DNA of 64,000 nucleotides. Source: a virus. Position numbers and translations under genes: made by a program. Positions 13,982 through 60,864 of the stretch are shown in pieces. Positions within the stretch are counted from its first letter, which is position 1; each line of letters opens with the position of its first letter. The notes beneath the pieces are model-generated. The model searched no databases. It was not told the DNA's origin and saw nothing but the letters and a program-made list of their open reading frames with translations. The DNA is taken from positions 541 to 64,540 of IMG/VR virus record IMGVR_UViG_3300031911_000004; one strand, given 5' to 3'.

Positions 13982-15466
13982 TTACACGATGGTCGGCCAA
14001 CCTGGAGGATTGTACGCCGACTCAACGATGGCGTAGCCGTTCACCACGTTGTCGGCGTTCTCCACCGCGCGGCACCCCCAGATTTGACGCCAGCCAAGAC
14101 CCGTCACGTTGCCGTAGTCTTCGACCTGCTGGATGCGCTCACCGTGGCGAGCGCCACCATCAAGCGAACCCCAGCCAGTCACCATCATGTGCTTGCCGAA
14201 CACCCACGTACGAACGAACGGCTGGCCGTTGGCGTTCACTTCGTAGATGCGGGAGCCGACCGGAAGAGCCTCGGTTGCCACAACGCTGGAGGTCCAGACG
14301 CCGGAACCGTAGGTCATGCTCCCGACGGTCGTCGCAATCGCGCCAGTGGTGCTGGCCGCGAGGCGCAGAACCTGGGTGATCTGGTTCCCGTTGTTCACCT
14401 GATAGGAGAAGATGGCAATCTTCCCGGTGTCGGACGCCACAACCGCCAGATAGCGCATCGTAGTGGTATCCGCCGCGATCTTCTCGCCTTCGTGGCCAAC
14501 GTACTGGGCGTTGGAGAAGTTCTGGAAGTACAGCGGAGCCGTAAGAGCGCCGAACGTCGCGGTGCCGCCGCCCTTGATGGTCTGGGCAGTCGTGGTCGCG
14601 GTGGAGGGGATCACTGCACCGAGGTAAGCGCGAGGAGCGCCCAAGCAGGCTTTGGGGCCGATCTGGGTGCCATCTTCAACCTGCCACTCGTGCAGCCATG
14701 TGTTGTCCCATGTCGGGAACCCACCCGCGAACAGGTAGTTCTTGTCTCCACGTTCGCCCGCCTGGGAAAGCAGGTTCTGGTAGGAGTTGCTCTGGTGCAT
14801 CCCGTCGAAGGAATACTGGCTCCCCAGCGCGGTGAAACGCCAGATGTCGGCTCCTGCGTTGGACTTCTTGACCGAGAACGGTTCGGCCTGAAGGCTGACA
14901 AGGCCACTCTTGGCGCGGGACACGTCACCCAACTTCAGGTAGTTGGCGCTCTTGAGGGAGTCGCGGGAGGTAACACCATCGGCATAGAAGGTGTTGTTCG
15001 AGTGCTTGCGCTTCTCCATCTCGAAGAGGATGTCGGAGGACATCTTCCAGGCGAAGAACTCGGCGAGCTTCTTCTTGCACCGCTGATCCCACTGAGAACC
15101 GATGACGGTTTGCTCCTTGGTCTGCTTGTCGGTCGCGACCGCATGGCGGAAGTGGCCGATCTTGGCGCGGTAGTTGGAGTGGTATTCCTTTTCCTCGGAG
15201 CCGATGAGGGTCGTGGAACCCTGCACGCCAGCACCGCCGAGGGGGCGATCCATGGTGAGCACGATTTCCTGACCGTCGAGCTTGCCGAAGTCAACGAGTT
15301 CAAGGATCGGGCGTTGTTCGCCGATCCCGCCGATGTAGTCGTAGAGCGGATTGGCCCGACCACGCATTTGCAGCGTGATGGACTTTTTCCATTTCACTTC
15401 CTGCGTGTCCGACGTATTCAGCCGGGTCAGGAAGTTGGTGAAGTTGGGGATGTCGTAAGAGGCCAT
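13982..15466 (-). CDS. Major capsid protein (N4-gp56/DUF4043-like)
   Basis: Start MASYDIP at 15466; DFGKLDGQEI...LGGAGVQG..TLIGSEE...IGHFRHAV; C-terminal VEDYGNVTGLGWRQIWG. Confidence 0.85.
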   Translation of the reverse strand: MASYDIPNFTNFLTRLNTSDTQEVKWKKSITLQMRGRANPLYDYIGGIGEQRPILELVDFGKLDGQEIVLTMDRPLGGAGVQGSTTLIGSEEKEYHSNYRAKIGHFRHAVATDKQTKEQTVIGSQWDQRCKKKLAEFFAWKMSSDILFEMEKRKHSNNTFYADGVTSRDSLKSANYLKLGDVSRAKSGLVSLQAEPFSVKKSNAGADIWRFTALGSQYSFDGMHQSNSYQNLLSQAGERGDKNYLFAGGFPTWDNTWLHEWQVEDGTQIGPKACLGAPRAYLGAVIPSTATTTAQTIKGGGTATFGALTAPLYFQNFSNAQYVGHEGEKIAADTTTMRYLAVVASDTGKIAIFSYQVNNGNQITQVLRLAASTTGAIATTVGSMTYGSGVWTSSVVATEALPVGSRIYEVNANGQPFVRTWVFGKHMMVTGWGSLDGGARHGERIQQVEDYGNVTGLGWRQIWGCRAVENADNVVNGYAIVESAYNPPGWPTIV

Positions 15467-15588: not shown

Positions 15589-16671
15589 TTACGCGATTGC
15601 GAAACCAAGCCCATGTTGGGCCGCTTTTGATCCGCTGTAGATTTCAGCGTCGTACAACGCTGCCACAGCTTCTGGACCACCTTCTTGGAGGGCTTTCGCC
15701 ACCGCCTCTTGAGTGATGCCTTCTTGGCTTGCAGACTTCGCCGCCGTAGCGGCAGACCCCTGCACGGGTCGGTATCCAGCCTTCTGGACGGGCTTCTGAG
15801 TGGCTTTCGCCTGCTCTGTGCCCTTCTCTTCAGACTGGGACTCCTTCGCGGACTTGATGTCCAAACGGGCAGCAACTTCCTTGAGGATCAAGTACGGGGC
15901 TTCGGGGTTGCCCTTGTACTTGTGGTTCTTATCTCTTGAAAACTTGTCGATTGCAACATGCATTGCATCAGAAAGCCGAGAGTCTTCAATCTCAGACTCG
16001 GGAAACTCCTCAATGCCTCGACGAACCGCTTCGTTCCACTTGGCGTCGAAATCTTCAGCGGTAGCAACCCGGTACTCATACTCGGCTTGCTCCTGTTCCT
16101 CTTGGATTTCGAGGCGCTGGATTTCGAGTTTGAGGTCGGTCTCCTGCTTGGACAGCTTGCGGATGTCCTTCGCGGTAAGATCGTAGTCCTCGTCGGATGA
16201 GTCGAGTTTCGTGGTGATCTCGGTCAACTGTGTCCGCTTCTCCTCAAGAGTGGAGCGGATTTTCGCCACCGTGTCAGGGATCTCGGGAGTGGCGTCGGCA
16301 TCAGCCTCGTCGTCCGTGACACCAAGCTGTTCTTTCGCGATCTCCAGAGCTTTTTCGAGGGGAATTCCAGCCTTCGCGGCGATGGTGGCAGCGCGGCGGT
16401 CAACCGGACTCCACTTGCCGATGCGAACACGCTTTGGGTCTTCAGCCTCCTCCTCGTCGTCATCCTCGGATTCTTTCTCCTCGGACTTCTCCTCAGCGGT
16501 GACTTCCTCGGAAGCCTCCTCCGTTTCTTCGGTGGACTCACCTTCCTTCTTGTCCTCAACCTTCTCCTGTTGTTGATCCTCGATCACAACCTGCTTTTCG
16601 CCGTCGGGCTTCCCAGCCTCTTCGTACATGGCTTCTGCGGCTGCATCAAGATCAACATACTCGTCGGACAT
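15589..16671 (-). CDS. Capsid scaffolding protein
   Basis: Very acidic coiled-coil protein immediately upstream of the MCP. Confidence 0.7.
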   Translation of the reverse strand: MSDEYVDLDAAAEAMYEEAGKPDGEKQVVIEDQQQEKVEDKKEGESTEETEEASEEVTAEEKSEEKESEDDDEEEAEDPKRVRIGKWSPVDRRAATIAAKAGIPLEKALEIAKEQLGVTDDEADADATPEIPDTVAKIRSTLEEKRTQLTEITTKLDSSDEDYDLTAKDIRKLSKQETDLKLEIQRLEIQEEQEQAEYEYRVATAEDFDAKWNEAVRRGIEEFPESEIEDSRLSDAMHVAIDKFSRDKNHKYKGNPEAPYLILKEVAARLDIKSAKESQSEEKGTEQAKATQKPVQKAGYRPVQGSAATAAKSASQEGITQEAVAKALQEGGPEAVAALYDAEIYSGSKAAQHGLGFAIA

Positions 16672-34700: not shown

Positions 34701-35406
34701 GCGTCTCATCGAGTTCATCCTTCTGGGCAGCGCGGAGTTTGCGGGCCGTTTCAGCCACACGACTTTCGAGCCTCGCTTTCTCGATTCGGTTGAGCGATTC
34801 CTCATGCTGTAGAGCCTCCTTGGCCTTCCCAACGGTGTTTGCGGCGGTGTCGATGGATGCCGCTGCCTCGCGCTTCTTCGCCCACTGCTCATCCTCACCC
34901 AGATCACGGGGTTTTAACCCGCGAACCGACTGGATTTTCCGCCCAGTCTTCGGGTCGGTGACGGTCTTGCCGAGCGTCTCGTAGGCGTCCACTAGGTTTC
35001 CTTGTGCATCACGGGTCCACGCCTTACCCTCGTTGTCATCCGTCCAGACGTTTGTGTTCTGGGTACGACGGAGAATCCCCCCATTCGGCGCAGTCGCGGG
35101 CCGTTTGCTCCCGGTTTCGGGGTCGGTCTGGAGTTGATAGCCAGCGTCTTTTGCTGCCTGTTCGGCTGCTTTCTGGCGGGCCACCGCAGCTTTCTCGGCG
35201 GCTTTCTGCTCTGCCAACAACTCACGATCAACGCGCTTGCGCATCTCAGCGTCCTGATCCTCCTGCACCTCAACTTCCGGGTCTTTGATCCCAGCCATGG
35301 CCATAGACGCCTTCCGACGCGTGGGAGACGGGTCGTTAAGGATGCGGCCAACGGCTGCTTGTTTTGCCCGCGCCAGGGCGGAACTTGAGAATGTGATGCG
35401 TGGCAT
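25747..35406 (-). CDS. Giant internal virion / ejection protein, large polyvalent-protein-like
   Basis: 3219 aa; coiled coils, Gly/Ala-rich hydrophobic segments, EALEEGLDQ motif, C-terminal LPD38-like RSKLSPAIG...GKDFAGE. Confidence 0.8.
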   Translation of the reverse strand: MPRITFSSSALARAKQAAVGRILNDPSPTRRKASMAMAGIKDPEVEVQEDQDAEMRKRVDRELLAEQKAAEKAAVARQKAAEQAAKDAGYQLQTDPETGSKRPATAPNGGILRRTQNTNVWTDDNEGKAWTRDAQGNLVDAYETLGKTVTDPKTGRKIQSVRGLKPRDLGEDEQWAKKREAAASIDTAANTVGKAKEALQHEESLNRIEKARLESRVAETARKLRAAQKDELDETLIEDLKRQNLEAQEDRDAFVSGESERQTRFVTTQQQLDNAGRDVTTLRQDLRAGRKPTVTDDAPGPQTALPPTPAAKAEDYTTRLDRYTKERESLNAEVQQLNTAITAADKRWMELKEQNLNTTATPGGTNRIIVTSRDSEGNPVKEEWDKSLWEQAQKAWDERKTALERLKPQIDTVTQKAAAMDADGQTLDAESRKVRDEQLAEQRAKLEKLGQQQPGIGKVIPDIQKLDDEFVQALDRIREESANVAPEARPEFEAQLAAMTDEYQAKRERLLQAGEVEQDLIREAASEMSRTKIEQKPGEDFADYFLRNVTEKVNTLAEKAGISKQQASNALEDAMNLESGWGDFEKKRTRLLHNGNVVVNPADWADPDAYRKAVEDSGADQEAKDRAMALLPELRLKAATQIVEAAQAIPAFKDFLDNTPGNIEQKATAFVKEQRKGGWVDQLINRVNAGGAGIGQQAMGVLAALTTTGLAGVEKMGAKSQLGESAQSALHDAMQFWTKRQNAYNVGAELAGTGILANSLTKVAGAGTSLLPALAGSVLTPGNPLLGSALAAAGQSGGGTYAEAFQAGTQQGKAESLAARDALKPAVISAIITGALTYGGGMNGVEGLFRSTTGREAVKTILRRKLVEIGRDVGEEALEEGLDQLAQGVLAASTYNQNKTVPEILNEAFEAAWIGGALGGAVSASTGGADVANELYQGFRDKQAMAQSDAEIQGFQGATPEETTTVTQQAQVLRDIAQGAELGQFTDQQLAVVGLERNENGAIEQGSSKGVPAVKLENGKPIITQGALDALEANFPATRSLIQLDEQEARAQANQDPEEEQPAPEEDASLTPAPESAVAPDAGAGNVSPVEATGDAAGPLPSDGEVEPAGSTGNPAVVGSEATPGPGTGQSTPEAVASKPATVTPERPTEKDSRAVTVPKGTAPGRYFYEYSNEVARIADLNGQQKAATLIRARAKLIGQALDRWAPKLGGVEFRRFGANDSTSFMQVDLDTGRVEIDPTRAIRRFRQFKNAAEIRNYMETALDEEFRHAVTVKRGNESQTFSDNFAAMWQELPDAIKQRSAEVYFARTGATFSPEDDFTAALEFFRQYWQDADLRKITEETASPSLLQRLRDVLNEFIDAIRSIQKGDMLPEVKTRMDALLKEAREAVKEIETRLATTEQTKTEQPAKAENAASDKKADKTDVDFDRAKQLANDWMRQNRNWTDALQEGELESNKAFNAVGEDGKDIPAHGMAKASPPAALDALARIFRDGIRTDNRAEGLHYAPLAKPQGTAGLATTAGGVAVRDGAFILVGKPGMKSFGNAADITAVLVNPALGQEFVDAVQAIVPAGVKVYSYADVSKAVDAAKAAAKPASKPKGPIFKKAAPSALEESRRQEAERSKQGNNPVKTEGSTKKAEFNNDVERIAASIPPSERWGEEKVFISDVYKAWVKENPGVSLGQFKNLLFDNRMKIQLSRLDLVEALTPEQRVKNNESATNFYGDTWNLIRIPAKKPAGAPSVAEEPDDSAELAKLLEELEQSAPEVDDIVALFEFAQEGQQENIGTLAPDAQAILDEVRAIRQSYENRVKDGMPKEDAQRIADDEVDSLNRQDAQTAVREELENVTSLKNADTDAEREARGENPILREAAHTWPEALDKARSILRKDPRAGEALVKELVNAPRAVTDVEAAVLLMQKVAVKQQKEAAQREINGMEDGPEKNSAKQRYDHLKQMENDVDVAAVGVGTSQGRGLNIRKMFLKLDEVYTPEALIQTFQTEANLGAEVSPQEQAEITQHANKIQAAQAKLDATDTEQEVREVKAALDRLRQNMQRDAERVVKKGGDEKAYLKDKAKAARERLKKNRPTGAAEGPRPAGAPSAPEDDLADYGVIGAEYIQEGATTLPDFTAKMVAEFGEDIRPRVPEIFTVSQQAFQTAQQEFAAEKARRERLKTPEGVIEAFRADPTKGLSKELLTNLARAYIRQKVNRTEDIVANIARDVQPLFPGTTESNVRVILSDYGKTTQPTKDELERQLSEVKAESRLLESLERANRGQNPLKSGYQRGPMSQRVRDLTAQVKAAMRKMGIETTREGQLASAKKAAKTRLQNQIEDLQAIIDGKSKPRPDRQTLEYDEELNALVKLRNELKAAVDEMTGESDDVKWNRAATRAAKASEEYYKRRIAAADFSARQKPNRTATAETQKAREDARIAREEFKALRELTGEPQAERLAKQKKRLEEEIEKTQRRLITGQRPNKPGAKPLPPQEIRDLKSQLGRLRQAVRMVEGPNQTDAQRAAILAKATQRTIDELKGRINRMSRGLPDVGRTKREPVEETPELKALRQERAELQEIHDALKEAQNPSRLPEEIALDNFRRATERKREKLERKLKNKEYLEVPTLDRSDVDRAFDKRRLDAQHQLESAKRDWNTFLFNRTLENRPTILKILGTGGEILNTGRAVLTSVDLSAPLRQGGFIAFGNPARAARAVWPMIKAFAKEKYQLQVENEIRNHPNFALAQQAGLYLTDMGELDLTKMEEQYMSRWAREIRGWKGAAVGAGLGAAAGATGLLGIGAIPGAAAGAILGSLGTVEASQRAFVTFLNKLRFDSFNTMVQTLGRDGRVTMEEGAALANYINVATGRGIIGMSKTLEGKKVPPSGNPILSTIFFSPRLMASRFNLLFGQPLYGGNGRTRALVSQEYGKFLVGIGTAMGLAYWAWLAFTDDEEKKKAKFLETDPRSSDFLKARFGNTRLDLFGGILQATVLVSRIVTGKTMKKGELVPLRGPLKPYSGDSTIDVIAKFLRSKLSPAIGSAVNLLQGKDFAGEEVTIQKEILKMTVPMSLQNIKDVMADQGVPKGLTFTLLSLFGAGVQTYETGRDAPKNPQIFTDIVSAWNEQNPDAAWLPSQPNKSSYSVTEKNPETKKSEKREMTPDQMDRYDKLRHDLMADAMAKDPLVSKSDPKAPTPAVIERLKELREKANADARKQALKPAANAGQSTASNNLPAWAKRPTS

Positions 35407-35463
35407 GGGTGATATGGCCTGTCAGGTGGGGCGTGATTGGGAGCGCCCCTGTAGGTTGTCGTG

Positions 35464-36075
35464 CTACTGCTTGCGGGCGCGGAGTTTCCACCACTCCCAC
35501 GGGACTTTCTTGCCGTCCTCTACAACGTAGCGATCTTTACGGCCAGAGGCTTTCCCGGTGGCAGTCATCTTCCCGCCTTGTGTGGACTCGGCTTCAACGC
35601 CTGAGAATGCATTTGCGGTGCTGTTGCCATCCGTCTTGGCAGTCGCTGAAACAGCAGGTTCTCTAGCCTTCGCGGATTTACGCTTCACTCGCTCAGCCTC
35701 AGCATAAGCGCGAGCGTACTCAGGGGAAGATCCCCGAGACGTATAGTAGGCTTCCGACTCCTTGTCGGATGTGTCACCACCACCTTGAACCTCAGCACGG
35801 CGTCGTTTCCGATACGATTCCTCACGGGCCATCGCAGCGTTGGACTTCTCGTTCTGTGCTTGATCCTCGGCGGCTTTGAATACCGCGTCAGGATCTCCAC
35901 CGCGTGCAGCAATCCGGCTGGCAAGCGCCTGCTCGGCGTTGACTCCCCGGATACGTCCCGGCACACCGCCAGAAGACGAGCGGCTCAACATGCGGGCAGC
36001 ACCAACATAATCGCCACGGTTCTCCATGGCGGCGGCACGTGCTCGGGATGCCCAACGAGGAAGGGTGGTTGCCAT
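35464..36075 (-). CDS. Putative small ejection/internal virion protein
   Basis: Basic, Ala/Arg-rich; upstream of the giant protein. Confidence 0.55.
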   Translation of the reverse strand: MATTLPRWASRARAAAMENRGDYVGAARMLSRSSSGGVPGRIRGVNAEQALASRIAARGGDPDAVFKAAEDQAQNEKSNAAMAREESYRKRRRAEVQGGGDTSDKESEAYYTSRGSSPEYARAYAEAERVKRKSAKAREPAVSATAKTDGNSTANAFSGVEAESTQGGKMTATGKASGRKDRYVVEDGKKVPWEWWKLRARKQ

Positions 36076-36078
36076 AAG

Positions 36079-36561
36079 TTATCGGCTACTACGGGCTTTG
36101 CGGAGTTTCGCCATGTTGACGGCACCATCCCACGACATCGTGCCTTCATTCCACGTCTGGCCGACTGCACGGCGAAGCGCCTGCTTACGTGCATCGCCCA
36201 TCTTGGCGTCACGGATTTGGTTCACTCGGAAAGTGTAGTCTGAGTCAACCTGCTGAGTGCGGAGTTTGTCAAGGTTCGCCTGTTCGAGATCCTGAAGGGC
36301 ATCAGACCCGACTTTGACCCGCACAGTTCCCGGCTGCCCTTGGCGAGCGCCTGCCCCATCTCCTGCGTAGACACCTGTGCCGCGGCGATAGTTGGTGTTG
36401 GCAGCGGAGTTGCGGGCAACGCTGTCCATGGCGGCTGAAACCCCCTGTTTAGCGGCCATCTGTCGCGCCTGGGACTGGTAAAGCAGATCGTTCTTGGCCT
36501 TGTCGCGCTCGTGGGCGAGTTTCTTGACCAGACTGCTGGCGGATTGGAGTTTGATGGCCAT
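36079..36561 (-). CDS. Putative small ejection/internal virion protein
   Basis: Basic, Ala/Gln-rich; same operon. Confidence 0.55.
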   Translation of the reverse strand: MAIKLQSASSLVKKLAHERDKAKNDLLYQSQARQMAAKQGVSAAMDSVARNSAANTNYRRGTGVYAGDGAGARQGQPGTVRVKVGSDALQDLEQANLDKLRTQQVDSDYTFRVNQIRDAKMGDARKQALRRAVGQTWNEGTMSWDGAVNMAKLRKARSSR

Positions 36562-36566
36562 GGCGG

Positions 36567-36854
36567 TTATTCCTCAGATTCTGGGTTGCGGCGGGACTTC
36601 TTCTTGGCGCGTTGAGCCATCCCGGCCCAGCCAACAGCGCGGAGATCCCGCAGAAAGTCTTCCTGCGCCTTGTCCATCATCGGGGCTATTGCGGAACCCG
36701 CAACCGGGACTGCGATCCTGCCTTGTCGGCGCTGCCCCAAGTGGTTGACGTTGGGGTCGAACTTGGCGGGTTGCTGCTGGACCCGCAGTCTTTCCCGGTT
36801 CTGGAATGCCGGGGACTTGCGGGCAGTGCTGAAGTTTGTCGCGATCCCTGCCAT
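36567..36854 (-). CDS. Small basic protein, first gene of the ejection operon
   Basis: 95 aa; TTGCGC promoter-like element upstream. Confidence 0.5.
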   Translation of the reverse strand: MAGIATNFSTARKSPAFQNRERLRVQQQPAKFDPNVNHLGQRRQGRIAVPVAGSAIAPMMDKAQEDFLRDLRAVGWAGMAQRAKKKSRRNPESEE

Positions 36855-37088
36855 AATGGCAGCATGATGCGATTTTCAAGGCTTTGGCGCAAGTGGTATT
36901 TTGAACGCCTTGATTGTCATACAGAAAGAACCCTCCCGATCCGGCCTCTCTCTCGCACGCAAGAGAGGTTTGGAGGATGGCCAGAAGGGGAGAGTAAGGG
37001 TATGACGCAGAAGGTAGGTTTTCTGGATTCGGAAATTGCCGCACAGCCTGATCAAAACCGCCGCTTTGGATTCTGAGTGCCTAAATTC

Positions 37089-37165
37089 ACCCGAGAGGTA
37101 CAGTGGGCTTTTTCATCCGATGGTTCACAGGCTATTGTCCAGCTACGACTTCCTTTCCTTCGGGC
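37089..37165 (-). ncRNA. Unrecognised structured RNA motif, copy 2
   Basis: Closing stem GCCCGA/TCGGGT; blocks AGTCGTAG, CTGTGAAC and TGTACCT shared with copy 1. Confidence 0.55.
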
Positions 37166-37226
37166 GTCAAATTGGTGCGTAACATTCAAGAAACGCGGAA
37201 ACCTTATCTTGTGGAGGGCGGGAGAA

Positions 37227-37347
37227 TCAGGACTGAAGAGATGGATTCGGGACTCGAACTCCGAACGTCACTTTCGTGACACTGCGTGATTGCCTAGGAT
37301 CAGCAGCGCGTCTACCAGCTTCCGCCAATCCATCTCTTCAGTCCTGA
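37227..37347 (-). ncRNA. tRNA-Leu-like RNA with a 21-bp closing stem
   Basis: Perfect 21-bp inverted repeat (37227-37247 / 37327-37347) enclosing a Leu-type D arm GCGGAAGCTGGTAGACGC, an enlarged anticodon arm, variable arm GTCAC-GAAA-GTGAC and T loop TTCGAGT; no CCA. Confidence 0.75.
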
Positions 37348-37354
37348 ATTTATG

Positions 37355-37429
37355 CCGCTGTCTGGTGTTCAACAAGGTACACATATAACCCCGTTCGCAG
37401 TTCTCCTACGACTCTATTCCAGACAGCGG
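37355..37429 (-). ncRNA. Unrecognised structured RNA motif, copy 1
   Basis: Perfect 11-bp closing stem CCGCTGTCTGG/CCAGACAGCGG; blocks AGTCGTAG, CTGCGAAC, TGTACCT. Confidence 0.6.
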
Positions 37430-37447
37430 GTTAAGGGTTGATTGATG

Positions 37448-37699
37448 CTAGTCGCATCCGCAACTGTTGCAAGCAGAACTTGAGGATGAATCCCCGCTCG
37501 TCATGTAAAGGAAGTTTTGAGCGGCGGTGAAACCAGCCATCGGGTCAGGCTGCGAATCTGTCGAGATCGAAGTGAAAGACCGTTGTTTCTTGGCTGGTGG
37601 CTTGGTAGGCTCAGCCTTTCGCGTTGGCGCACGCTCATTCTCTTCATGCTTCAGGCCGGAAAACAGGGCGGTGAATCTTGGAACGTCGTAGGATGCCAT
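37448..37699 (-). CDS. 83-aa protein whose N-terminus resembles the major capsid N-terminus
   Basis: Start MASYDVPRFT at 37699, 5 nt after the upstream stop; C-terminal CNSCGCD. Confidence 0.6.
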   Translation of the reverse strand: MASYDVPRFTALFSGLKHEENERAPTRKAEPTKPPAKKQRSFTSISTDSQPDPMAGFTAAQNFLYMTSGDSSSSSACNSCGCD

Positions 37700-37704
37700 A
37701 GTGG

Positions 37705-38109
37705 TTACTGGTTGATTGCTCTCGGTCCGATGTTGCGGCCACGGCGACGGAGGATGGAGGTCTTGGCGTGTTTCTGGCGGACTATAGCACGTCGGGCAAA
37801 CACTTGTCTTGCTTCCCAATCTTTGATATACGCCTCCCCTTGGGCCTTCCGTTCGTCATTGCGGCGTTTACACTCGGCCCTGGCTATCACCTCCAGCGCC
37901 TTCCCTTGTGGGCTGTCATATGGCTGCTTGATGAGCGCCCATGTCATGCCCCTGTCATCAACGTGGTATTCTATGTCTGAGGCGTATGCAGGCTTTGACC
38001 AGTTGCTCGTGTCGGGCGGGTCATCTCGGTATATCCACCACAGAGCAATCTTCACGATGCTCAAAGTGCCCAATCCGACAGCAAGAATCCAGAAGAGTGT
38101 TTCCATCAC
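37705..38109 (-). CDS. Membrane-anchored hypothetical protein
   Basis: N-terminal TM helix LFWILAVGLGTLSIVKIALWWIY. Confidence 0.6.
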   Translation of the reverse strand: MMETLFWILAVGLGTLSIVKIALWWIYRDDPPDTSNWSKPAYASDIEYHVDDRGMTWALIKQPYDSPQGKALEVIARAECKRRNDERKAQGEAYIKDWEARQVFARRAIVRQKHAKTSILRRRGRNIGPRAINQ

Positions 38110-38459
38110 AATCCCTCCCCCTCTGTGAATGTGATCTGAATGCAGGCGATGCGAGGTCCGCCCATTTCGTCGGCATCCTCCTTGGTCTCAAACAGACCAT
38201 TGCAACTGCCATTGTACACGTTTGTCCACATGGTTCGCGTAACCGGGGCCATGAAGAGGTCGTTGCCGCTTGTGGTTGCATCATCATGATACCCACCATT
38301 CACGATGAACGTTTCCATTCTCCTGTTGATACTGGCAACTATTTGATAGTTGTCGCAATCGGCGCAGTACGTGATGAACGTAGCAGGTCTCCCGTTACGT
38401 GTCTGTATCGGGTGGCCAGCTTGGGCCAACTTCAGGTCAAAAGGCTTCAGGGCGCTCAT
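38106..38459 (-). CDS. Conserved phage hypothetical protein
   Basis: KPFDLKLAQAGHPIQTRNGRPA...DLFM motif. Confidence 0.65.
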   Translation of the reverse strand: MSALKPFDLKLAQAGHPIQTRNGRPATFITYCADCDNYQIVASINRRMETFIVNGGYHDDATTSGNDLFMAPVTRTMWTNVYNGSCNGLFETKEDADEMGGPRIACIQITFTEGEGL

Positions 38460-38746
38460 ACTTCTGGGTCGAATTTGGATTTGAACTCTTTGTCTGACAT
38501 GACGTGAGGATTGTTGATGTCGTCCCACACCACCCAATCTCCAATCTGCAAATCTCTGCCCCACCAGTTAGAGCAGCGGACTACGACTGATCTGATGATG
38601 CGCTTCCCATTGTCTACCTGCCAGTTGTTGAGGTAGATGGGTTTAGGCAGTTCCTGCTTGTCGAAGATGTGAGACGCCACCAACTCCAATGTCACCTGAA
38701 ACGCTTGGAAGCGCTGTGGTTTGCTGATGAAGACTTGGGTTGCCAT
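38456..38746 (-). CDS. Conserved phage hypothetical protein
   Basis: KP..FQAFQ...IGDWVV...F..KF pattern. Confidence 0.6.
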   Translation of the reverse strand: MATQVFISKPQRFQAFQVTLELVASHIFDKQELPKPIYLNNWQVDNGKRIIRSVVVRCSNWWGRDLQIGDWVVWDDINNPHVMSDKEFKSKFDPEV

Positions 38747-38917
38747 ACTGTTGGATTTGAAGAAGTCAGCCAGTCCAGGTTGCTCACAGATGAGGTTTCA
38801 GTTCGTCTCGTGTACTTGAAGACGGACCATGTGTTTTCCGCTGCGCCCTCGATGCTGGCTGACTCAGCCGTCATTCTCCCCACTTGCGCAATCATTGCAA
38901 GCGGTTTTCTCCACAAA

Positions 38918-41209
38918 TCACAACCCATGCGCCTGATTGTCCCAGTCGAACCCATCATCGCGATAGCTGTATTGGGCATCTGGTGGCCCCTCAAGATGTG
39001 GCGTGAACTGGGTCGCAAACTGAATGCACGACATCCCGACCGAGAGCATACGCAGCCAGTCGTCGCGTTCACCAGCGGGTGGAACTGGGTCGCCGTCTTT
39101 GTTCACCGTGATGTAGCTGAGTTGGCGGATCATCTCGGGACAGTTGACGACGAGCTTCTGTTCGCGGATCACCCTGTCGAGGTTGTCGGTGGATTGACGG
39201 TGGAGCCCTGGCTTGCTGAGCCAGCCGAATGTCTCTGTGGACTTCCCTTGCGTGAGCCGTGAGCCGTCGGCACCCATTCCCGGCCCCCAGAGGTTCTGCA
39301 CGCCGATCTCCATCAGCCTGTTTGCGGCGTTGTCGAGGTTGTCGATGATCGGCACCACGGTACACCGCCCGTACATCCGATGGAGCGCCAACACGCGCTG
39401 CATCACCACATCGGGCGCTGATTCGTCCTCAAGTTGCAATGCCGCCACGAGTTTCGCAGGTGTCACGGCCCGCGTCTCCGGGTCTACATGCTCCGAGCAA
39501 AGCACGCCTATCGCGTTGGTGTCGCGGCGGGTGGCGCTGCCGACCAGCAACTTCCCATCTCGAAACCTCACTGACAACACATAGGATCGGCCTTCCATCG
39601 GCGTATTCCACACCCGGCACCATCCGCCTGGGTTATCCCGTGGCACGCTCGCCCGCGTGGTCTCATTGGTGATGATCTCCATGATTCTCGGCTGGGCCGT
39701 GGTCGGAACCGAGGCGATACGGAGACGCTCGACACCCGAGGCATCGAAGCGGCGGCTGGATTTTGTGACCATCACCCCCGACATCTTGGCCTCAGCCTTT
39801 ACACGCAGGGAGTCGCAAAAGTGACTGCACCAGTTATGCACGATGTCGTTCGTCAACAACCCCGTCTTTTCATCCTGCTTGCGTCGGTACTCGCGGAGGG
39901 CCTCCAACCCACGCTTGCATTTATCGGCATCGAACATGCAGAGGTCCAGCATCTTCGAGACCTCGTTGATGCCCAGCCATGGATCGGTTGTTCTCGGGAC
40001 GGTGACGACGTTCTCCAATCCAGCGAGCGTCAATTCCTCGCGGAAGGTCATGCCGCCAGGGCGTAGTGCGTTCGCATCGTGTGGTACGTAGTGGGCGTTG
40101 AAGTCATAGCCCTTCGCCCGCATGTGGGCCGTGCGCTGCTCGGTCGTCAAAAACAGGTTGTGGTCGCAGTCGATGACATGCTCGTACCCAGCAATCGTTT
40201 GCGTGTACCAGACGACCGTGTTCTCGGGTGCTCCGAGATCCCAGAAGGTGTCCACGGTGTACTCTGGATTGTGCGGCAGCGAGGTAATCTGGCCGCGGGT
40301 CATCAGCGTGTCCATCATCACCCCATAGATTGCCCCGATGATTGGAGCCTCCCAGCACTCGTCGATGGTGCTCGGGAACTCGCGCTTCATCTTCGACCCC
40401 TGTTGAGCGGAGGTCAGCGTGTACCAACGCTTTTGCGCCTGGGTGAAACCTTTTTTCGTCTTCTCAGCCAGATCCCTGAAATATTGCTCCACCTCTCCTG
40501 AGACGGTGCCGCCATCGAATCGGGCGCACTCCGGGTCATTGTGCCACGGGAAGAACATCAGCACGCCCTCGGCATCCTCTGCCTTCTTCATGATCGGCTC
40601 GATCAACTCCCAGAGGTCTCCAGACTTCCCGCCCATCCACGTAGTCTCGACCACGCGTTTCCCCTTACGTGCCGCAGGAAGCGCGCCGGACCGGATTTCC
40701 GCTGACCTGGGCCTGTCCTCGAACGCGATTGGCCCCCACTCGGAGACCCAGAGGAACGAGCAGTCGCCCCCGCGGGCTTGCACGCCTGCATGGATGCTCG
40801 ACTTGAACTCATCGGGAACCGTCTTGATCTTCAACTCGAAGTCTGAGTCAGACCGCTTGAATACCTCCAGCCTGCTTGTCAACTCGTCGGGCATGGATTC
40901 AGCCGCGAACCTGATGATGTTGCGCATCTTCTCAGCCGCGAACTCTTTGGATCGCTCGATCAGCCTCGCCTGGGTGCCGCCTTTCCAGATTGCCTCGTCA
41001 GCCATAGCCACTCCGATCCCGGTGGACAGCCCCAAGCGGCGGGCTTTGATGATGTAGACTGGCACCGTTGGGCTTTCACGCAAGGATGTGATGACCATCT
41101 CCTGCTCTTGGCGCATCTTGAAAGGGATGGGATCACCTTCCCCCTCTTTGCGGATCTTGTAGAGGTTGGAGAGACGCCATCTCCAGTCGGCGAGGAGTTC
41201 GGGGGTCAT
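38918..41209 (-). CDS. terL: Terminase large subunit with C-terminal extension
   Basis: Walker A IIKARRLGLST, Walker B FLWVSEWG, coupling motif ETT, nuclease WDLG...SHFCDSLR. Confidence 0.9.
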   Translation of the reverse strand: MTPELLADWRWRLSNLYKIRKEGEGDPIPFKMRQEQEMVITSLRESPTVPVYIIKARRLGLSTGIGVAMADEAIWKGGTQARLIERSKEFAAEKMRNIIRFAAESMPDELTSRLEVFKRSDSDFELKIKTVPDEFKSSIHAGVQARGGDCSFLWVSEWGPIAFEDRPRSAEIRSGALPAARKGKRVVETTWMGGKSGDLWELIEPIMKKAEDAEGVLMFFPWHNDPECARFDGGTVSGEVEQYFRDLAEKTKKGFTQAQKRWYTLTSAQQGSKMKREFPSTIDECWEAPIIGAIYGVMMDTLMTRGQITSLPHNPEYTVDTFWDLGAPENTVVWYTQTIAGYEHVIDCDHNLFLTTEQRTAHMRAKGYDFNAHYVPHDANALRPGGMTFREELTLAGLENVVTVPRTTDPWLGINEVSKMLDLCMFDADKCKRGLEALREYRRKQDEKTGLLTNDIVHNWCSHFCDSLRVKAEAKMSGVMVTKSSRRFDASGVERLRIASVPTTAQPRIMEIITNETTRASVPRDNPGGWCRVWNTPMEGRSYVLSVRFRDGKLLVGSATRRDTNAIGVLCSEHVDPETRAVTPAKLVAALQLEDESAPDVVMQRVLALHRMYGRCTVVPIIDNLDNAANRLMEIGVQNLWGPGMGADGSRLTQGKSTETFGWLSKPGLHRQSTDNLDRVIREQKLVVNCPEMIRQLSYITVNKDGDPVPPAGERDDWLRMLSVGMSCIQFATQFTPHLEGPPDAQYSYRDDGFDWDNQAHGL

Positions 41210-47674: not shown

Positions 47675-48037
47675 TCATTCTCCCTCCCTCCAGAGGTCTA
47701 GAGTTTGTCCGAACGTCTCAGCGTGCTGTTCGGCAGTAGCGTCAACCATCTGGAAAATAGCCCCAGTTTCTGGCACATACCAGAACCCTTTCTTGCCGCA
47801 GATCACCTCACGCAGGACGACCTCATAGTCACCCTTTTGACGCTCCGTCAGATGAGAGCGCATTACACGGCAGTCGTTGAGATCCTTGAAGTAGTCTGGC
47901 ACCATATCCCAAGCAAGGAACTCCGTGCCGTCGATCTTGTGATGACCCATGAGAGCGCCATCCTCGTAGTCAGGTGGATCGGCAATTACCCACCCGCACG
48001 CCTCAGCGATCTTGATTCGTTTTTGCCCTTGCGTCAT
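47675..48037 (-). CDS. Hypothetical phage protein, paralog of 60526-60864
   Basis: KRIKIAEACGW...VPDYFKDLN...LWREGE. Confidence 0.7.
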   Translation of the reverse strand: MTQGQKRIKIAEACGWVIADPPDYEDGALMGHHKIDGTEFLAWDMVPDYFKDLNDCRVMRSHLTERQKGDYEVVLREVICGKKGFWYVPETGAIFQMVDATAEQHAETFGQTLDLWREGE

Positions 48038-60127: not shown

Positions 60128-60529
60128 CTAACTGCAAATCCTTTTTAATTCATCACGTGCTTGCTCAACTGATTTTATCAGGCACCATTCACCCCGTTGG
60201 GTTAAAATTAACGTGCGTACATGCTCTTGACCTGGGTCTAGTTTCCCATTGCCAAACTTAACCTCCCACGCTACGAATTTGCCATTAAGGCAGAAGATAA
60301 AATCCGGCGTGGATTTAGTCCCAGTCCGCCGTTTATGCATAGCGTCTTGGTCGAACCAGATGCCACGCAACCGCAGAAGGTCCGCTATCTGATTCTGCAA
60401 GTCGCGCTCAGACTTGATCGTGTATCGGCTGATTGCTTCCTCAGCGGTCATCACGCGGGCACCAAGAGCCTTGCGATCCTCGGGCCGCATACGGCGCAGC
60501 ATGTTGTCAGGGAGGTCGGTGGATTTCAT
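60128..60529 (-). CDS. VRR-NUC / resolvase-like PD-(D/E)XK nuclease
   Basis: SERDLQ...TPDFIF...AWEVK...L..GQ. Confidence 0.8.
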   Translation of the reverse strand: MKSTDLPDNMLRRMRPEDRKALGARVMTAEEAISRYTIKSERDLQNQIADLLRLRGIWFDQDAMHKRRTGTKSTPDFIFCLNGKFVAWEVKFGNGKLDPGQEHVRTLILTQRGEWCLIKSVEQARDELKRICS

Positions 60530-60864
60530 TCTCCCTCCTTCCATAGGCCGAGGCAGATGCCGAAGGCTTCTGCGCGTTGTGGCGGCGTGGCCATGTGTTT
60601 ATCGAATTCCGAAACTCCTTCATCCTTCATCATGATTTTATAGGTCAAGCAGTGCATATAAAGAGCCTCCTTTTCATAGGGCATCGCCATCAACATCTCA
60701 TGACATGCATTGAGGTCATTGAAGTAGTCTGGGACTGGGATAGGCCCAATATCTGGCGCTTTCTGGGACCGCGGATGTCCAACGATAAGATCGGGACCGT
60801 CATAATGTATATGATGCCATCCCATCGCCTCGGCTATCTTGATACGTTTCTCTTCCAGCGTCAT
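60526..60864 (-). CDS. Hypothetical phage protein, paralog of 47675-48037
   Basis: KRIKIAEAMGW...VPDYFNDLNACHE...LWKEGE. Confidence 0.7.
   Translation of the reverse strand: MTLEEKRIKIAEAMGWHHIHYDGPDLIVGHPRSQKAPDIGPIPVPDYFNDLNACHEMLMAMPYEKEALYMHCLTYKIMMKDEGVSEFDKHMATPPQRAEAFGICLGLWKEGE

What the first reader, a model, noticed from the sequence alone, without database searches (positions are those of the whole stretch)
37448..37699. Small protein beginning with a copy of the major capsid N-terminal peptide
Seen: this 83-aa ORF starts MASYDVPRFTALFSGL, and the major capsid protein 22 kb away starts MASYDIPNFTNFLTRL (MASYD-[IV]-P-x-FT). The codons differ at synonymous sites (GCA TCC TAC versus GCC TCT TAC), which suggests the peptide rather than the DNA is conserved. 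The rest is low-complexity and ends in CNSCGCD. It lies directly upstream of the ncRNA array on the same strand. Inference: a decoy for a capsid-sensing defence system, a competitor of capsid N-arm/scaffold contacts, or a capsid-targeting tag. It may form one anti-defence unit with the RNAs.
Basis: partly seen in the sequence, partly recalled or inferred. Interest (0 to 1): 0.75.

Follow-up and report, generated by a model that had tools for sequence, protein, structure and literature searches.

The report
Small gene copying capsid protein start
An uncultured soil phage carries a tiny, dispensable extra gene whose first 16 amino acids are an old copy of the start of its own major capsid protein; the copy is real, but whether it works as a capsid-docking tag or is only a leftover of how the gene arose is still open.

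Summary
ORF83 (37448-37699, -) and the major capsid protein (MCP, 13982-15466, -) share MASYD[IV]PxFT..[LF][FL][ST].L. Against the MCP start P is about 6e-9, and it is the second-best pair among 4.2 million ORF-start pairs. The likeness starts at the ATG and is visible as peptide, not as DNA.

New findings:
- ORF83 has no homolog anywhere searched.
- It lies between two copies of a 16-nt repeat, as a discrete insert.
- It sits in a 1137-nt block (36920-38056) that a ~96 % identical relative lacks in two other metagenomes, so it is dispensable.
- It keeps this phage's own residues (SYD[IV]P) but not the family-conserved N8, F/W12 and R15.
- Selection on the copy is not shown (P 0.05-0.12 under the fair null).

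Best reading (0.35): a young accessory gene whose MCP-derived N-arm tip acts as a capsid-docking tag, like the T4 capsid targeting sequence. Nearly tied (0.33): the tag is only a by-product of gene birth. The decoy idea is untested.

This scan noted small proteins bearing MCP fragments in other phages (unchecked notes).

The parts
37448..37699 (-). ORF83, an 83-aa orphan small protein (8.9 kDa, Ser/Pro/Ala-rich, ends CNSCGCD)
   Evidence: Best coding frame of six. No family or homolog.
37652..37699 (-). Codons 1-16 of ORF83: the copy of the MCP N-arm tip
   Evidence: Score 43, P 5.6e-9. 16 of 45 nt differ, 8 of them at third codon positions.
13982..15466 (-). Major capsid protein gene (N4 gp56 / PF13252 type, 494 aa). 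Source of the copied peptide (codons 1-16 = 15419-15466).
   Evidence: In the AF2 model residues 1-18 have pLDDT below 50, with helices at 12-16 and 22-34.
37703..37718 (-). Left copy of the 16-nt direct repeat. It contains the last codons and the stop of ORF134 and ends 3 nt before the ORF83 ATG.
   Evidence: D5; the only two exact matches of the pattern in the window. ORF83 ranks 1 of 316 ORFs for flank repeats.
37429..37444 (-). Right copy of the 16-nt direct repeat (14 of 16 identical). It starts 3 nt after the ORF83 stop and overlaps the 5' arm of the first hairpin.
   Evidence: (D5, I2).
36920..38056 (.). 1137-nt strain-variable block: most of ORF134, ORF83 and most of the structured RNA region. 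Absent from a ~96 % identical relative, which has 22 other letters in its place.
   Evidence: table 5. The same joint 36919->38057 appears in contigs of X2 (soil) and X4 (wastewater). X3 record 8 (38019-38169, identical) spans the right border of the long form.
37705..38109 (-). ORF134, upstream neighbour: N-terminal hydrophobic segment, basic tail, good Shine-Dalgarno sequence. Only its first 53 nt are kept in the short-form relative.
   Evidence: No family.
36855..37447 (-). Structured ORF-poor region downstream of ORF83, including a perfect 21-bp stem at 37227-37247 / 37327-37347
   Evidence: MFE -206 kcal/mol, z -4.54, 0 of 100 shuffles as stable. No Rfam or tRNA hit.
15589..16671 (-). Scaffold-like gene directly upstream of the MCP gene (acidic, coiled-coil-like, 360 aa from the second Met). 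Candidate partner of the N-arm.
   Evidence: Weak homologs sit upstream of the MCP genes of G001 and L001. No PHROG or Pfam hit, so the scaffold assignment rests on position and composition only.

Best explanation
ORF83 is a real but young and dispensable accessory gene of an uncultured phage with an N4-gp56-type capsid. The host is probably a member of the Verrucomicrobia.

SHOWN
- Its first 16 codons are related to the start of the phage's own MCP gene far beyond chance.
- The direction of copying is MCP to ORF83, because the SY(D) start also occurs in distant MCPs.
- The gene sits as a discrete insert of about 258 nt between two copies of a 16-nt repeat at the end of ORF134.
- The whole 1.1-kb block around it is missing from a ~96 % identical relative.
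- It lies in the head-gene block: terminase, small genes, giant protein, portal, scaffold-like gene, MCP.

INFERRED
The inherited N-arm tip works as a docking tag. In HK97-fold capsids the N-arm is what the scaffold's C-terminus grips in the procapsid. In N4 the N-arm runs to the neighbouring capsomer's quasi-2-fold. A small disordered protein that starts with the same tip would be carried to the same socket, on the scaffold or on the inner capsid face. One candidate place is the portal vertex, where a missing penton leaves sockets empty. The protein would then be built into heads as a non-essential internal or cargo protein, as the T4 internal proteins are by their N-terminal capsid targeting sequence.

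Confidence that the gene's start derives from the MCP gene is about 0.9. Confidence in the docking-tag mechanism is 0.35.
For: - Non-chance match that begins exactly at the ATG.
- Peptide likeness exceeds what 16 random nucleotide changes would leave: 0.8-1.5 % of simulations for 16 codons and 0.07 % for the first 10 codons.
- The replacements at positions 12-14 are conservative (L/F, F/L, S/T) and L16 is kept.
- Best coding frame of six. The start context is typical for this phage. The ORF is tightly packed 5 nt after ORF134.
- Same strand and block as the head genes: terminase-related PHROG matches and homologs named terminase, portal phrog_1216, MCP.
- Strain-variable location like the T4 internal-protein loci. 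[quoted passage not shown]
- The scaffold C-terminus binds the N-arm helix in 80alpha (PMC5644958, passages).
- The N4 N-arm, residues 1-46, reaches the quasi-2-fold of the adjacent MCP (PMC11768535, passage).
- In the MCP model the tip (residues 1-18) is unstructured on its own, as expected for a segment that orders only on a partner.
Against: - ORF83 lacks the residues of the tip that the MCP family conserves (N8, F/W12, R15). It scores -7.6 on a profile of the 19 other MCP starts, against 13.0 for the phage's own MCP and a background of -25.7 +/- 7.8. If those residues make the contact, the tag is dead.
- Under the fairer null (MCP constrained, ORF83 drifting) the peptide likeness is not significant: 5-12 %.
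- No homolog exists, so nothing shows conservation.
- The close relative does without the gene.
- The complete distant relative G001 has no such second copy: best score 22 of 3410 starts.
- No other ORF start of this phage carries the tag, unlike the T4 targeting sequence, which several proteins share.
- No prohead protease was identified among the 20 proteins scanned.
- Codon bias is weak, at the 4th percentile of gene windows. An open frame of this length is not rare: 6.3 % of shuffles.
Confidence: 0.35

Rival explanations
1. By-product of gene birth. An illegitimate or repeat-mediated recombination placed a copy of the MCP gene's start in front of unrelated, low-complexity sequence, possibly together with its upstream translation-initiation region. 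The shared peptide is only inherited and has no function of its own. ORF83 may be a neutral or weakly useful ORFan of a hypervariable region.
For: - Orphan, disordered, low-complexity protein (composition).
- Discrete insert between 16-nt direct repeats.
- Sits in a block that a close relative lacks.
- The family-conserved tip residues are lost.
- The pattern of nucleotide differences is compatible with drift of the ORF83 copy.
- The 30 nt upstream are also somewhat alike: 14 of 30 ungapped, reached by 1.7 % of 1198 ATG upstreams, and a gapped 16-of-20 block reached by 2.4 % of 1192. This hints at a DNA-level copy that included the leader.
- Weak codon bias.
Against: - Third codon positions differ at 8 of 15 sites, which is near saturation, yet the frame is intact for 83 codons and 12 of 15 residues are identical or conservative.
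- The upstream likeness may be only shared C/A-rich composition, which many starts here have.
- The better upstream block lies outside the repeat-bounded insert.
- The likeness begins exactly at the ATG.
Confidence: 0.33
2. Decoy or competitive binder. A host factor recognises the MCP N-terminus: a capsid-sensing defence protein, a protease or a chaperone. ORF83 offers the same peptide and occupies that factor without triggering it.
For: - The location in a strain-variable accessory block is typical of counter-defence genes.
- The copied residues are the phage-specific ones (SYD[IV]P) rather than the family-conserved ones. That fits mimicry of what a sensor of this particular phage would see.
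- Unchecked notes of this scan report small proteins bearing MCP fragments in other phages. These are a lead only.
Against: - No defence-related family in ORF83 or its six neighbours: 0 of 7 in PADLOC.
- A peptide that is the trigger of a sensor would be expected to activate it rather than block it, as with the T4 Gol peptide and Lit (recalled, not from a call).
- My one search for a published capsid-peptide decoy (88 papers held 4 of 5 terms, and of the 12 listed I saw titles and abstract starts only) showed none.
- The gene sits among late head genes rather than early genes. No promoter evidence either way: one search found one weak promoter-like site, within expectation.
Confidence: 0.1
3. 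Shared removable leader. The common peptide is a propeptide cut off by a phage or host protease from both the MCP and ORF83. This would resemble the leaders shared by capsid and scaffold proteins of Staphylococcus phage 80alpha. The mature ORF83 would be a processed small peptide with a Ser/Cys-rich end.
For: - A precedent for head proteins sharing a cleaved N-terminal leader: PMC5744158 (search listing and abstract start only), while the Prp detail is recalled.
- Three unchecked scan notes of shared MCP/scaffold leaders.
- The MCP tip is disordered in the model.
Against: - The scaffold-like protein does not carry the peptide. No third ORF start does either.
- No protease family among the 20 proteins scanned.
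- MCP relatives have equally short, uncleaved-looking starts with no conserved cleavage motif.
- In N4 the N-arm from residue 1 is part of the mature shell (PMC11768535, passage).
Confidence: 0.07
4. Not a gene, or a chance match. The ORF is an untranslated open frame in a non-coding, RNA-rich spacer, and the peptide likeness is coincidence.
For: - No homolog and weak codon bias.
- Open frames of 83 codons or more are common here: 23 % of all ATGs, real genes included, and 6.3 % of shuffles.
Against: - Chance is excluded for the match: P 5.6e-9, and 0.08 expected even over all 4.2 million start pairs.
- The frame is the best of six and scores above 99.5 % of off-frame windows.
- The start context and gene packing are typical.
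Confidence: 0.1

Closest known systems
T4-type internal proteins (IPI, IPII, IPIII) with the N-terminal capsid targeting sequence (CTS)
   Same: Small, non-essential, highly strain-variable proteins encoded in variable loci. A short N-terminal peptide takes them into the assembling head (PMC3012670, passages). ORF83 is small, dispensable and strain-variable, and carries a short N-terminal peptide shared with a head protein.
   Different: The T4 CTS is shared among several internal proteins and is removed by the prohead protease; it is not a copy of the MCP start. Here the peptide is shared only with the MCP, no protease is identified, and packaging is not shown.
Scaffold / N-arm contact of HK97-fold capsids and its hijacking by SaPI1 CpmB (Staphylococcus phage 80alpha)
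   Same: A short helix of one protein docks on the MCP N-arm. A small foreign protein (CpmB) competes by carrying a look-alike of the docking piece (PMC5644958, passages). ORF83 would be the mirror case: a look-alike of the N-arm side.
   Different: CpmB mimics the scaffold's C-terminus, sits on a satellite and changes capsid size. ORF83 mimics the MCP's N-terminus and is encoded by the phage itself. No binding is shown.
Repeat-flanked ORFan cassettes of phage hyperplastic regions (PeSL-mediated modular shuffling in T4-type phages; morons in general)
   Same: Novel small ORFs that differ between nearly identical phages and are bounded by short repeated motifs (PMC2839356 and PMC4122927, search listing and abstract starts only). 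ORF83 lies between 16-nt repeats, inside a block absent from a ~96 % identical relative.
   Different: The repeat here occurs only twice in the genome and is not a promoter-terminator motif. PeSLs are a dispersed family.
N4 gp56-type major capsid proteins (PF13252, phrog_334)
   Same: The source of the peptide is a bona fide member. In N4 the N-arm (residues 1-46) is part of the mature lattice (PMC11768535, passage).
   Different: ORF83 has only the first 16 (at most 29) residues. No other MCP part is present in any frame of the block.
Small phage proteins bearing copies of MCP fragments, noted elsewhere in this scan (e1-5625639, e1-5792337, e1-5939320, e1-3266402)
   Same: A short copy of the phage's own MCP on a small carrier protein. 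One of these families is Cys-rich, and ORF83 ends in CNSCGC.
   Different: Those are unchecked AI notes about other phages. They concern conserved internal or C-terminal MCP pieces and families with many members. ORF83 is a singleton and copies the least conserved tip. No sequence relation was found.

Membership tests
T4-type CTS-bearing internal proteins | The same N-terminal targeting peptide is shared by several internal head proteins | tested here: not met
   Only ORF83 and the MCP share the peptide. The next best of 3871 ORF starts scores 16 against 43.
T4-type CTS-bearing internal proteins | The peptide is removed by a prohead protease | not testable with these tools
   No protease family among the 20 proteins scanned. 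Cleavage needs protein chemistry.
T4-type CTS-bearing internal proteins | The protein is present inside proheads or virions | not testable with these tools
   Needs virion proteomics.
T4-type CTS-bearing internal proteins | Encoded in a strain-variable locus and non-essential | tested here: met
   The 1137-nt block holding ORF83 is absent from a ~96 % identical relative in two runs of two studies.
Shared cleavable leader of capsid and scaffold proteins (80alpha type) | Scaffold and MCP start with the same leader | tested here: not met
   The scaffold-like protein's start (either Met) is unlike MASYD. It does not appear among the top start pairs.
Scaffold-mimicking size-redirection proteins (SaPI1 CpmB type) | The C-terminus resembles the helper scaffold's C-terminal helix-and-hook | tested here: not met
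   In a tblastn of the MCP, scaffold-like and 353-aa proteins against the cassette DNA (E up to 100), every row I could read was an MCP match and only MCP residues 1-29 stood out; the printout was cut, so scaffold rows were not seen. In a tblastn of ORF83 against the window, the only match apart from ORF83 itself with E below 1 was the MCP start (E 0.006).
N4 gp56 / PF13252 major capsid protein (for the 494-aa source gene) | Match to the family models and homologs over the full length | tested here: met
   phrog_334 E 9e-15. PF13252 31.4 bits against a cutoff of 23. 34 homologs, most covering 96-100 % of the query. HK97-like model with pTM 0.78.
N4 gp56 / PF13252 major capsid protein (for ORF83) | Any MCP fold element beyond the N-arm tip | tested here: not met
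   Only residues 1-29 align, at 34 % identity. No Pfam or PHROG hit.
Repeat-bounded mobile ORFan cassette (moron / PeSL-like) | Presence/absence polymorphism between near-identical phages | tested here: met
   for the 1137-nt block. No relative was seen that lacks ORF83 alone.
Repeat-bounded mobile ORFan cassette (moron / PeSL-like) | Flanking repeated motif | tested here: met
   A 16-nt direct repeat, 14 of 16 identical, lies 3 nt from the start and from the stop. These are the only two exact matches of the pattern in the window, and ORF83 ranks 1 of 316 ORFs.
Repeat-bounded mobile ORFan cassette (moron / PeSL-like) | Own promoter and terminator | tested here: inconclusive
   One weak promoter-like site at 37810-37781 (9 of 12 matches), within chance expectation. 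No terminator-like site on the - strand.
Capsid-sensing defence triggers or decoys (Gol/Lit-like) | A host sensor that binds the copied MCP peptide | not testable with these tools
   The host is unknown. 0 of 7 local proteins hit PADLOC.

The most novel reading that the evidence does not exclude
A phage has turned the tip of its own capsid protein's N-arm into a portable address label. A 16-residue MCP-derived tag docks a small, strain-variable cargo protein into the N-arm socket of the scaffold or of the inner capsid wall, for instance the sockets left empty around the portal. The protein is then packaged and delivered with the DNA. This would be a capsid-targeting signal of independent origin from the T4 capsid targeting sequence, in an N4-gp56-type phage for which no packaging signal is known. 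It could also be one instance of a wider habit of phages to display pieces of their own MCP on small proteins.
Probability: 0.2. Interest if true: 0.75.

Novelty: new variant of a known kind. Interest (0 to 1): 0.42.

Why it matters
If the tag works, it would be a second, independently evolved way of addressing proteins to a phage head. It would be derived from the capsid protein itself, and it would be a simple 16-residue handle for loading cargo into N4-type capsids. It would also link to the small proteins bearing MCP fragments that this scan keeps noting in unrelated phages.

If the tag is only a by-product, the locus is still a clean, datable example of how phages make new genes. It shows capture of the first codons of a highly expressed gene, insertion between short repeats, and presence/absence between ~96 % identical genomes. 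Either way the case is a singleton without homologs, so its general weight is limited until the protein is looked for in virions.

Tried and rejected
Homolog searches for ORF83, all empty:
- PHROGs and Pfam and PADLOC.
- The 5.8-billion-cluster word search: 1 candidate, none scored.
- tblastn against 50,697 phage records at E up to 10, and blastn of the region.
- HMMER against 1.84 billion representatives. It gave 2 hits at E 1.8e-4 and 5.4e-4, to 1212- and 3206-aa proteins, matching only the low-complexity residues 28-72.
- ESM Atlas: no usable hit.
- Scan index by sequence: only this window.

Search for the peptide elsewhere. A degenerate DNA pattern for MASYD[IV]PxFT found nothing in viral contigs or metagenome contigs.

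Relatives:
- The MCP alone or as an alignment found only L001 (36 %), G001/L002 (50 %) and L009 (48 %, Verrucomicrobia MAG).
- The terminase in viral contigs and the 160-aa neighbour in metagenome contigs found none.
- tblastn of the MCP against phage records found none.
- G001 shares only about 8 genes and has no ORF83.

Complex prediction (MCP alignment, scaffold-like residues 100-360, and ORF83 as partner): no verdict. The score was 0.01 against a mark of 0.32 and the controls were not run. This is no evidence either way.

Sequencing runs: no RNA holder was listed, so nothing can be said on expression. X3 and X5 do not cover ORF83 itself, which means nothing.

Other checks that led nowhere:
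- Origin of the ORF83 body: blastn with 7-nt words against the rest of the window and G001 gave nothing above noise. No other MCP piece occurs in any frame of the block.
- A candidate shared upstream motif (GGCC..CAACATC) is not a recurrent gene-start element: 7 loose matches, none at other starts. I dropped it.
- Hydrophobic-moment analysis was uninformative.
I did not pursue it.

Supplementary files of papers were not opened. Virion proteomes in supplements of the N4/DEV papers could bear on MCP N-terminal processing.
Full report
WHAT THE WINDOW IS
The window is bases 541-64540 of a 64,540-base virus record. ORF starts at record positions 1 and 64414 have identical first residues, so the record's ends repeat.

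The minus strand carries a head-gene block in this order:
- a 763-aa large terminase (41209-38918). Its own PHROG matches are mostly unnamed families, but its homologs are named terminase in Prosthecobacter and Luteolibacter, and one is a hypothetical protein of an Akkermansiaceae MAG;
- several small genes;
- a 3219-aa protein (35406-25747);
- the portal (25743-23689, phrog_1216);
- an acidic scaffold-like gene (16671-15589);
- the major capsid protein, MCP (15466-13982). It matches phrog_334 and PF13252. It has 34 homologs, one of them labelled 'N4-gp56 family'.

A 48 % identical MCP lies on a contig of a Verrucomicrobia MAG, so the host is probably a member of the Verrucomicrobia. The record was assembled from, or is identical to, a rhizosphere metagenome run.

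THE OBSERVATION
ORF83 (37699-37448, -) reads MASYDVPRFTALFSGL... and ends CNSCGCD. The MCP reads MASYDIPNFTNFLTRL....

Over residues 2-16 there are 8 identities and 4 conservative pairs, and the BLOSUM62 score is 43.
- The exact tail probability is 5.6e-9 against the MCP start.
- Even over all 4,177,495 pairs of ATG/GTG/TTG starts opening 40 codons or more, only 0.08 such pairs are expected.
- Empirically the pair ranks second among non-trivial pairs. The first is a true paralog pair, the ORFs at 47675-48037 and 60526-60864. The random background tops out at 31-36.
- Against the MCP start alone, the runner-up of 3871 starts scores 16.

The DNA alignment begins exactly at the ATG, with 23 of 30 and then 32 of 48 bases identical. 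As DNA it is not significant: score 25, against shuffles with mean 20 and maximum 28. BLAST extends the peptide match weakly to residue 29. Nothing else of the MCP is present in any frame of the region.

IS ORF83 A GENE?
- Its frame is the best of six by a codon log-odds trained on ten long genes: 0.034 per codon. Gene windows give 0.38 +/- 0.17 and off-frame windows -0.62 +/- 0.22. ORF83 is above 99.5 % of off-frame windows but only at the 4th percentile of gene windows.
- The ATG lies 5 nt after the stop of ORF134.
- It has no Shine-Dalgarno sequence. Of the 22 starts I listed, 14 have no SD-like word in the 28 nt upstream, the MCP, terminase, portal and giant gene among them. They have C/A-rich leaders instead.
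- An open frame of this length is not rare: 6.3 % of shuffles.
I put about 0.85-0.9 on its being translated.

NO HOMOLOGS
Every search for ORF83 relatives came back empty. The DNA pattern encoding MASYD[IV]PxFT occurs in neither IMG/VR nor the JGI metagenome contigs.

Among the 34 MCP homologs, only the phage's own MCP and one distant one (P0030, MASYDKINAQT) begin with MASYD. A distant clade of MCPs carries xSYxK[IV]N further in. So SY(D) is old in the MCP lineage, and the direction of copying is MCP to ORF83.

WHICH RESIDUES ARE KEPT
A profile of the other 19 close MCP starts gives the phage's own MCP 13.0 and ORF83 only -7.6, against a background of -25.7 +/- 7.8. ORF83 keeps A2, S3, Y4, F9, T10 and L16, and the phage-specific D5 and P7. 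It has lost N8, F/W12 and R15, the positions the family conserves best. ORF83 therefore resembles this phage's MCP, not MCP starts in general.

IS THE PEPTIDE UNDER SELECTION IN ORF83?
Sixteen of 45 bases differ: 8 at third codon positions, 6 at first and 2 at second.
- If 16 changes are thrown at random onto the MCP start, the peptide stays this similar in 606 of 72,204 simulations (0.8 %) or 1188 of 77,165 (1.5 %). For the first ten codons it does so in 60 of 84,067 (0.07 %).
- That null lets both copies drift. With the MCP copy held to synonymous change and only ORF83 drifting, the figure is 5-12 %: 63/1330, 768/10817, 1983/21499 and 621/5033 for four rates.

THE NEIGHBOURHOOD VARIES BETWEEN STRAINS
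Laying Logan contigs of four other runs on 35400-39000 showed the following.
- A relative about 96 % identical in the three downstream genes. For example, X2 record 3 has 22 differences and 2 gaps in 690 nt.
- By hand from the table, 29 of the 31 listed differences inside those genes fall on third codon positions. These are real, constrained genes.
- In X2 (soil) and X4 (wastewater), which are two different studies, a contig joins 36919 directly to 38057 through the same 22 other letters. It skips 1137 nt.
- The skipped block holds all but the first 53 nt of ORF134, all of ORF83 and most of the structured region.
- Reading the joint by hand, the ORF134 frame in the short form ends after about 24 codons at a stop at 36919-36917.
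- X3 (a third study) has identical 151-nt pieces. One spans the right border of the long form (38019-38169) and one lies inside the block (37758-37908).
- Two further stretches (38134-38401 and 38761-38867) are replaced by unlike sequence of similar length in X2.
The space between the terminase and the 95-aa gene is therefore a hypervariable region, and ORF83 is dispensable for a viable close relative.

ORF83 IS A NESTED INSERT
A 16-nt direct repeat (14 of 16 identical) brackets ORF83.
- One copy (37718-37703) holds the last codons and the stop of ORF134 and ends 3 nt before the ATG.
- The other (37444-37429) starts 3 nt after the stop and runs into the 5' arm of the first hairpin (D5, I2).
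- The two are the only exact matches of the pattern in the window.
- Among 316 ATG-ORFs of 50 codons or more, ORF83 has the best repeat between its flanks: 14, with the next at 13 and the bulk at 8-10.
- Removing the unit between the repeats would leave ORF134 with an almost unchanged end, directly followed by the hairpin.
ORF83 therefore looks like a separate, later addition to an ORF134-plus-RNA arrangement. This tempers the idea that it forms one functional unit with the RNAs.

The 30 nt upstream of the two ATGs are 14 of 30 identical, a level reached by 1.7 % of 1198 ATG upstreams. A gapped 16-of-20 block exists, reached by 2.4 % of 1192. This may be a trace of a DNA-level copy that included the MCP leader, or just the common C/A-rich composition.

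WHAT THE COPIED PIECE DOES IN THE MCP
- In the AlphaFold model of the MCP (pLDDT 77, pTM 0.78), residues 1-18 are unstructured (pLDDT below 50). There is a short helix at 12-16 and then the N-arm helix at 22-34.
- In 80alpha procapsids the scaffold's C-terminal helix-and-hook binds mainly the N-arm helix, and SaPI1's CpmB competes there (PMC5644958, passages).
- Papers on P22, SPP1, phi29 and D3 held the same search terms (listing and abstract starts only).
- No scaffold has been identified for N4 itself (PMC11445570, passage). Here an acidic gene upstream of the MCP is scaffold-like by position and composition, with weak homologs in the same place in two relatives.

READINGS
(1) Docking tag, 0.35. 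The tip takes ORF83 to the N-arm's partner, and the protein is built into heads as a non-essential internal protein. This is analogous to T4's strain-variable internal proteins with their capsid targeting sequence (PMC3012670, passages).
- For: the location in the head block, dispensability and variability, conservative replacements, and an intact old frame.
- Against: the conserved tip residues are lost, there is no conservation data, no second tagged protein and no protease.

(2) By-product of gene birth, 0.33. Capture of the MCP start, perhaps with its leader, by an insert between short repeats. The peptide is merely inherited.

(3) Decoy or competitor for a host factor that reads the MCP start, 0.10. 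It fits the accessory location and the retention of phage-specific residues. There is no supporting hit and no published precedent among the 12 papers listed by my one search (titles and abstract starts only).

(4) Shared removable leader, 0.07. The scaffold-like protein lacks the peptide, and no protease was seen.

(5) Not translated, about 0.10. Chance is excluded for the match itself.

COMPARISON AND NOVELTY
The thing works most like a T4 CTS-bearing internal protein, or like a mirror image of CpmB. It fails the testable defining features of both families (see Membership tests). Structurally it is an ORFan cassette of a hypervariable region, as in PeSL-mediated shuffling of T4-type phages (PMC2839356 and PMC4122927; abstract starts only). 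I saw no published description of a small protein starting with a copy of its phage's MCP N-terminus.

Unchecked notes of this scan describe small proteins carrying other MCP pieces in other phages, and head proteins with shared leaders. They gave me the leader rival and the wider context, but they are not evidence.

VERDICT
The feature is a singleton, dispensable, MCP-start-bearing ORFan. It is an interesting curiosity with a testable docking-tag hypothesis, but it has no conservation behind it. Interest 0.42.

Noticed in passing
window 38134-38401 and 38761-38867: In the ~96 % identical relative (run X2) these two stretches are replaced by unlike sequence of similar length (269 and 137 letters). 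The space between the terminase and the 95-aa gene is therefore a mosaic hypervariable region.
   Followed up: partly
window 37227-37347 (-), within 36855-37447: A perfect 21-bp stem encloses a 79-nt branched insert with a T-loop-like GTTCGAGTC. The whole 593-nt spacer folds far better than shuffles (z -4.5). ARAGORN and Rfam (E up to 1) recognise nothing. A 21-bp perfect duplex would be an RNase III-type substrate; that is my inference.
   Followed up: partly
window 47675-48037 (-) and 60526-60864 (-): Two small ORFs (120 and 112 aa) start with nearly the same peptide (MTQGQKRIKIAEACGW / MTLEEKRIKIAEAMGW). It is the best-scoring start pair of the genome, so probably a paralog pair.
   Followed up: no
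record ends (G000 1 and 64414; the right copy starts at window 63874): ORF starts at both ends of the 64,540-base record have identical first 18 residues. The ends therefore repeat, either as a terminal repeat or as an assembly overlap.
   Followed up: no
window, gene starts listed: Of the 22 starts listed, 14 have no SD-like word in the 28 nt upstream, the MCP, terminase, portal and giant gene among them. They have C/A-rich leaders (..ACC/CCC ATG) and often begin ATGGC (Met-Ala).
   Followed up: partly
window 38918-41209 (-): The terminase large subunit is 763 aa. Its nearest homologs (up to 53 % identity, about 510 aa, named ones from Prosthecobacter and Luteolibacter and an Akkermansiaceae MAG) cover only 62-65 % of it. 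Only P0134 (781 aa, on a 64-kb contig) covers 96 %.
   Followed up: no
MCP homologs P0021-P0031: A distant clade of PF13252 MCPs is predicted with a 30-50-residue hydrophobic, signal-like extension before the conserved xSYxK[IV]N motif. P0030 starts directly at MASYDK. These may be miscalled starts or a real leader.
   Followed up: no
window 37448-37492 (-), C-terminus of ORF83: The protein ends in a Ser/Cys-rich stretch (five Ser, then A-C-N-S-C-G-C-D). This is reminiscent of metal-binding tails or of cores of modified peptides. No modifying enzyme was seen among the neighbours scanned.
   Followed up: no
G001 (IMG/VR relative) 32710 (+) / 32755 (-): Two long ORFs on opposite strands start with the same 16 residues, which implies a perfect inverted repeat of about 50 nt at that spot. 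G001 also encodes a 5016-aa protein related to the window's 3219-aa protein.
   Followed up: no
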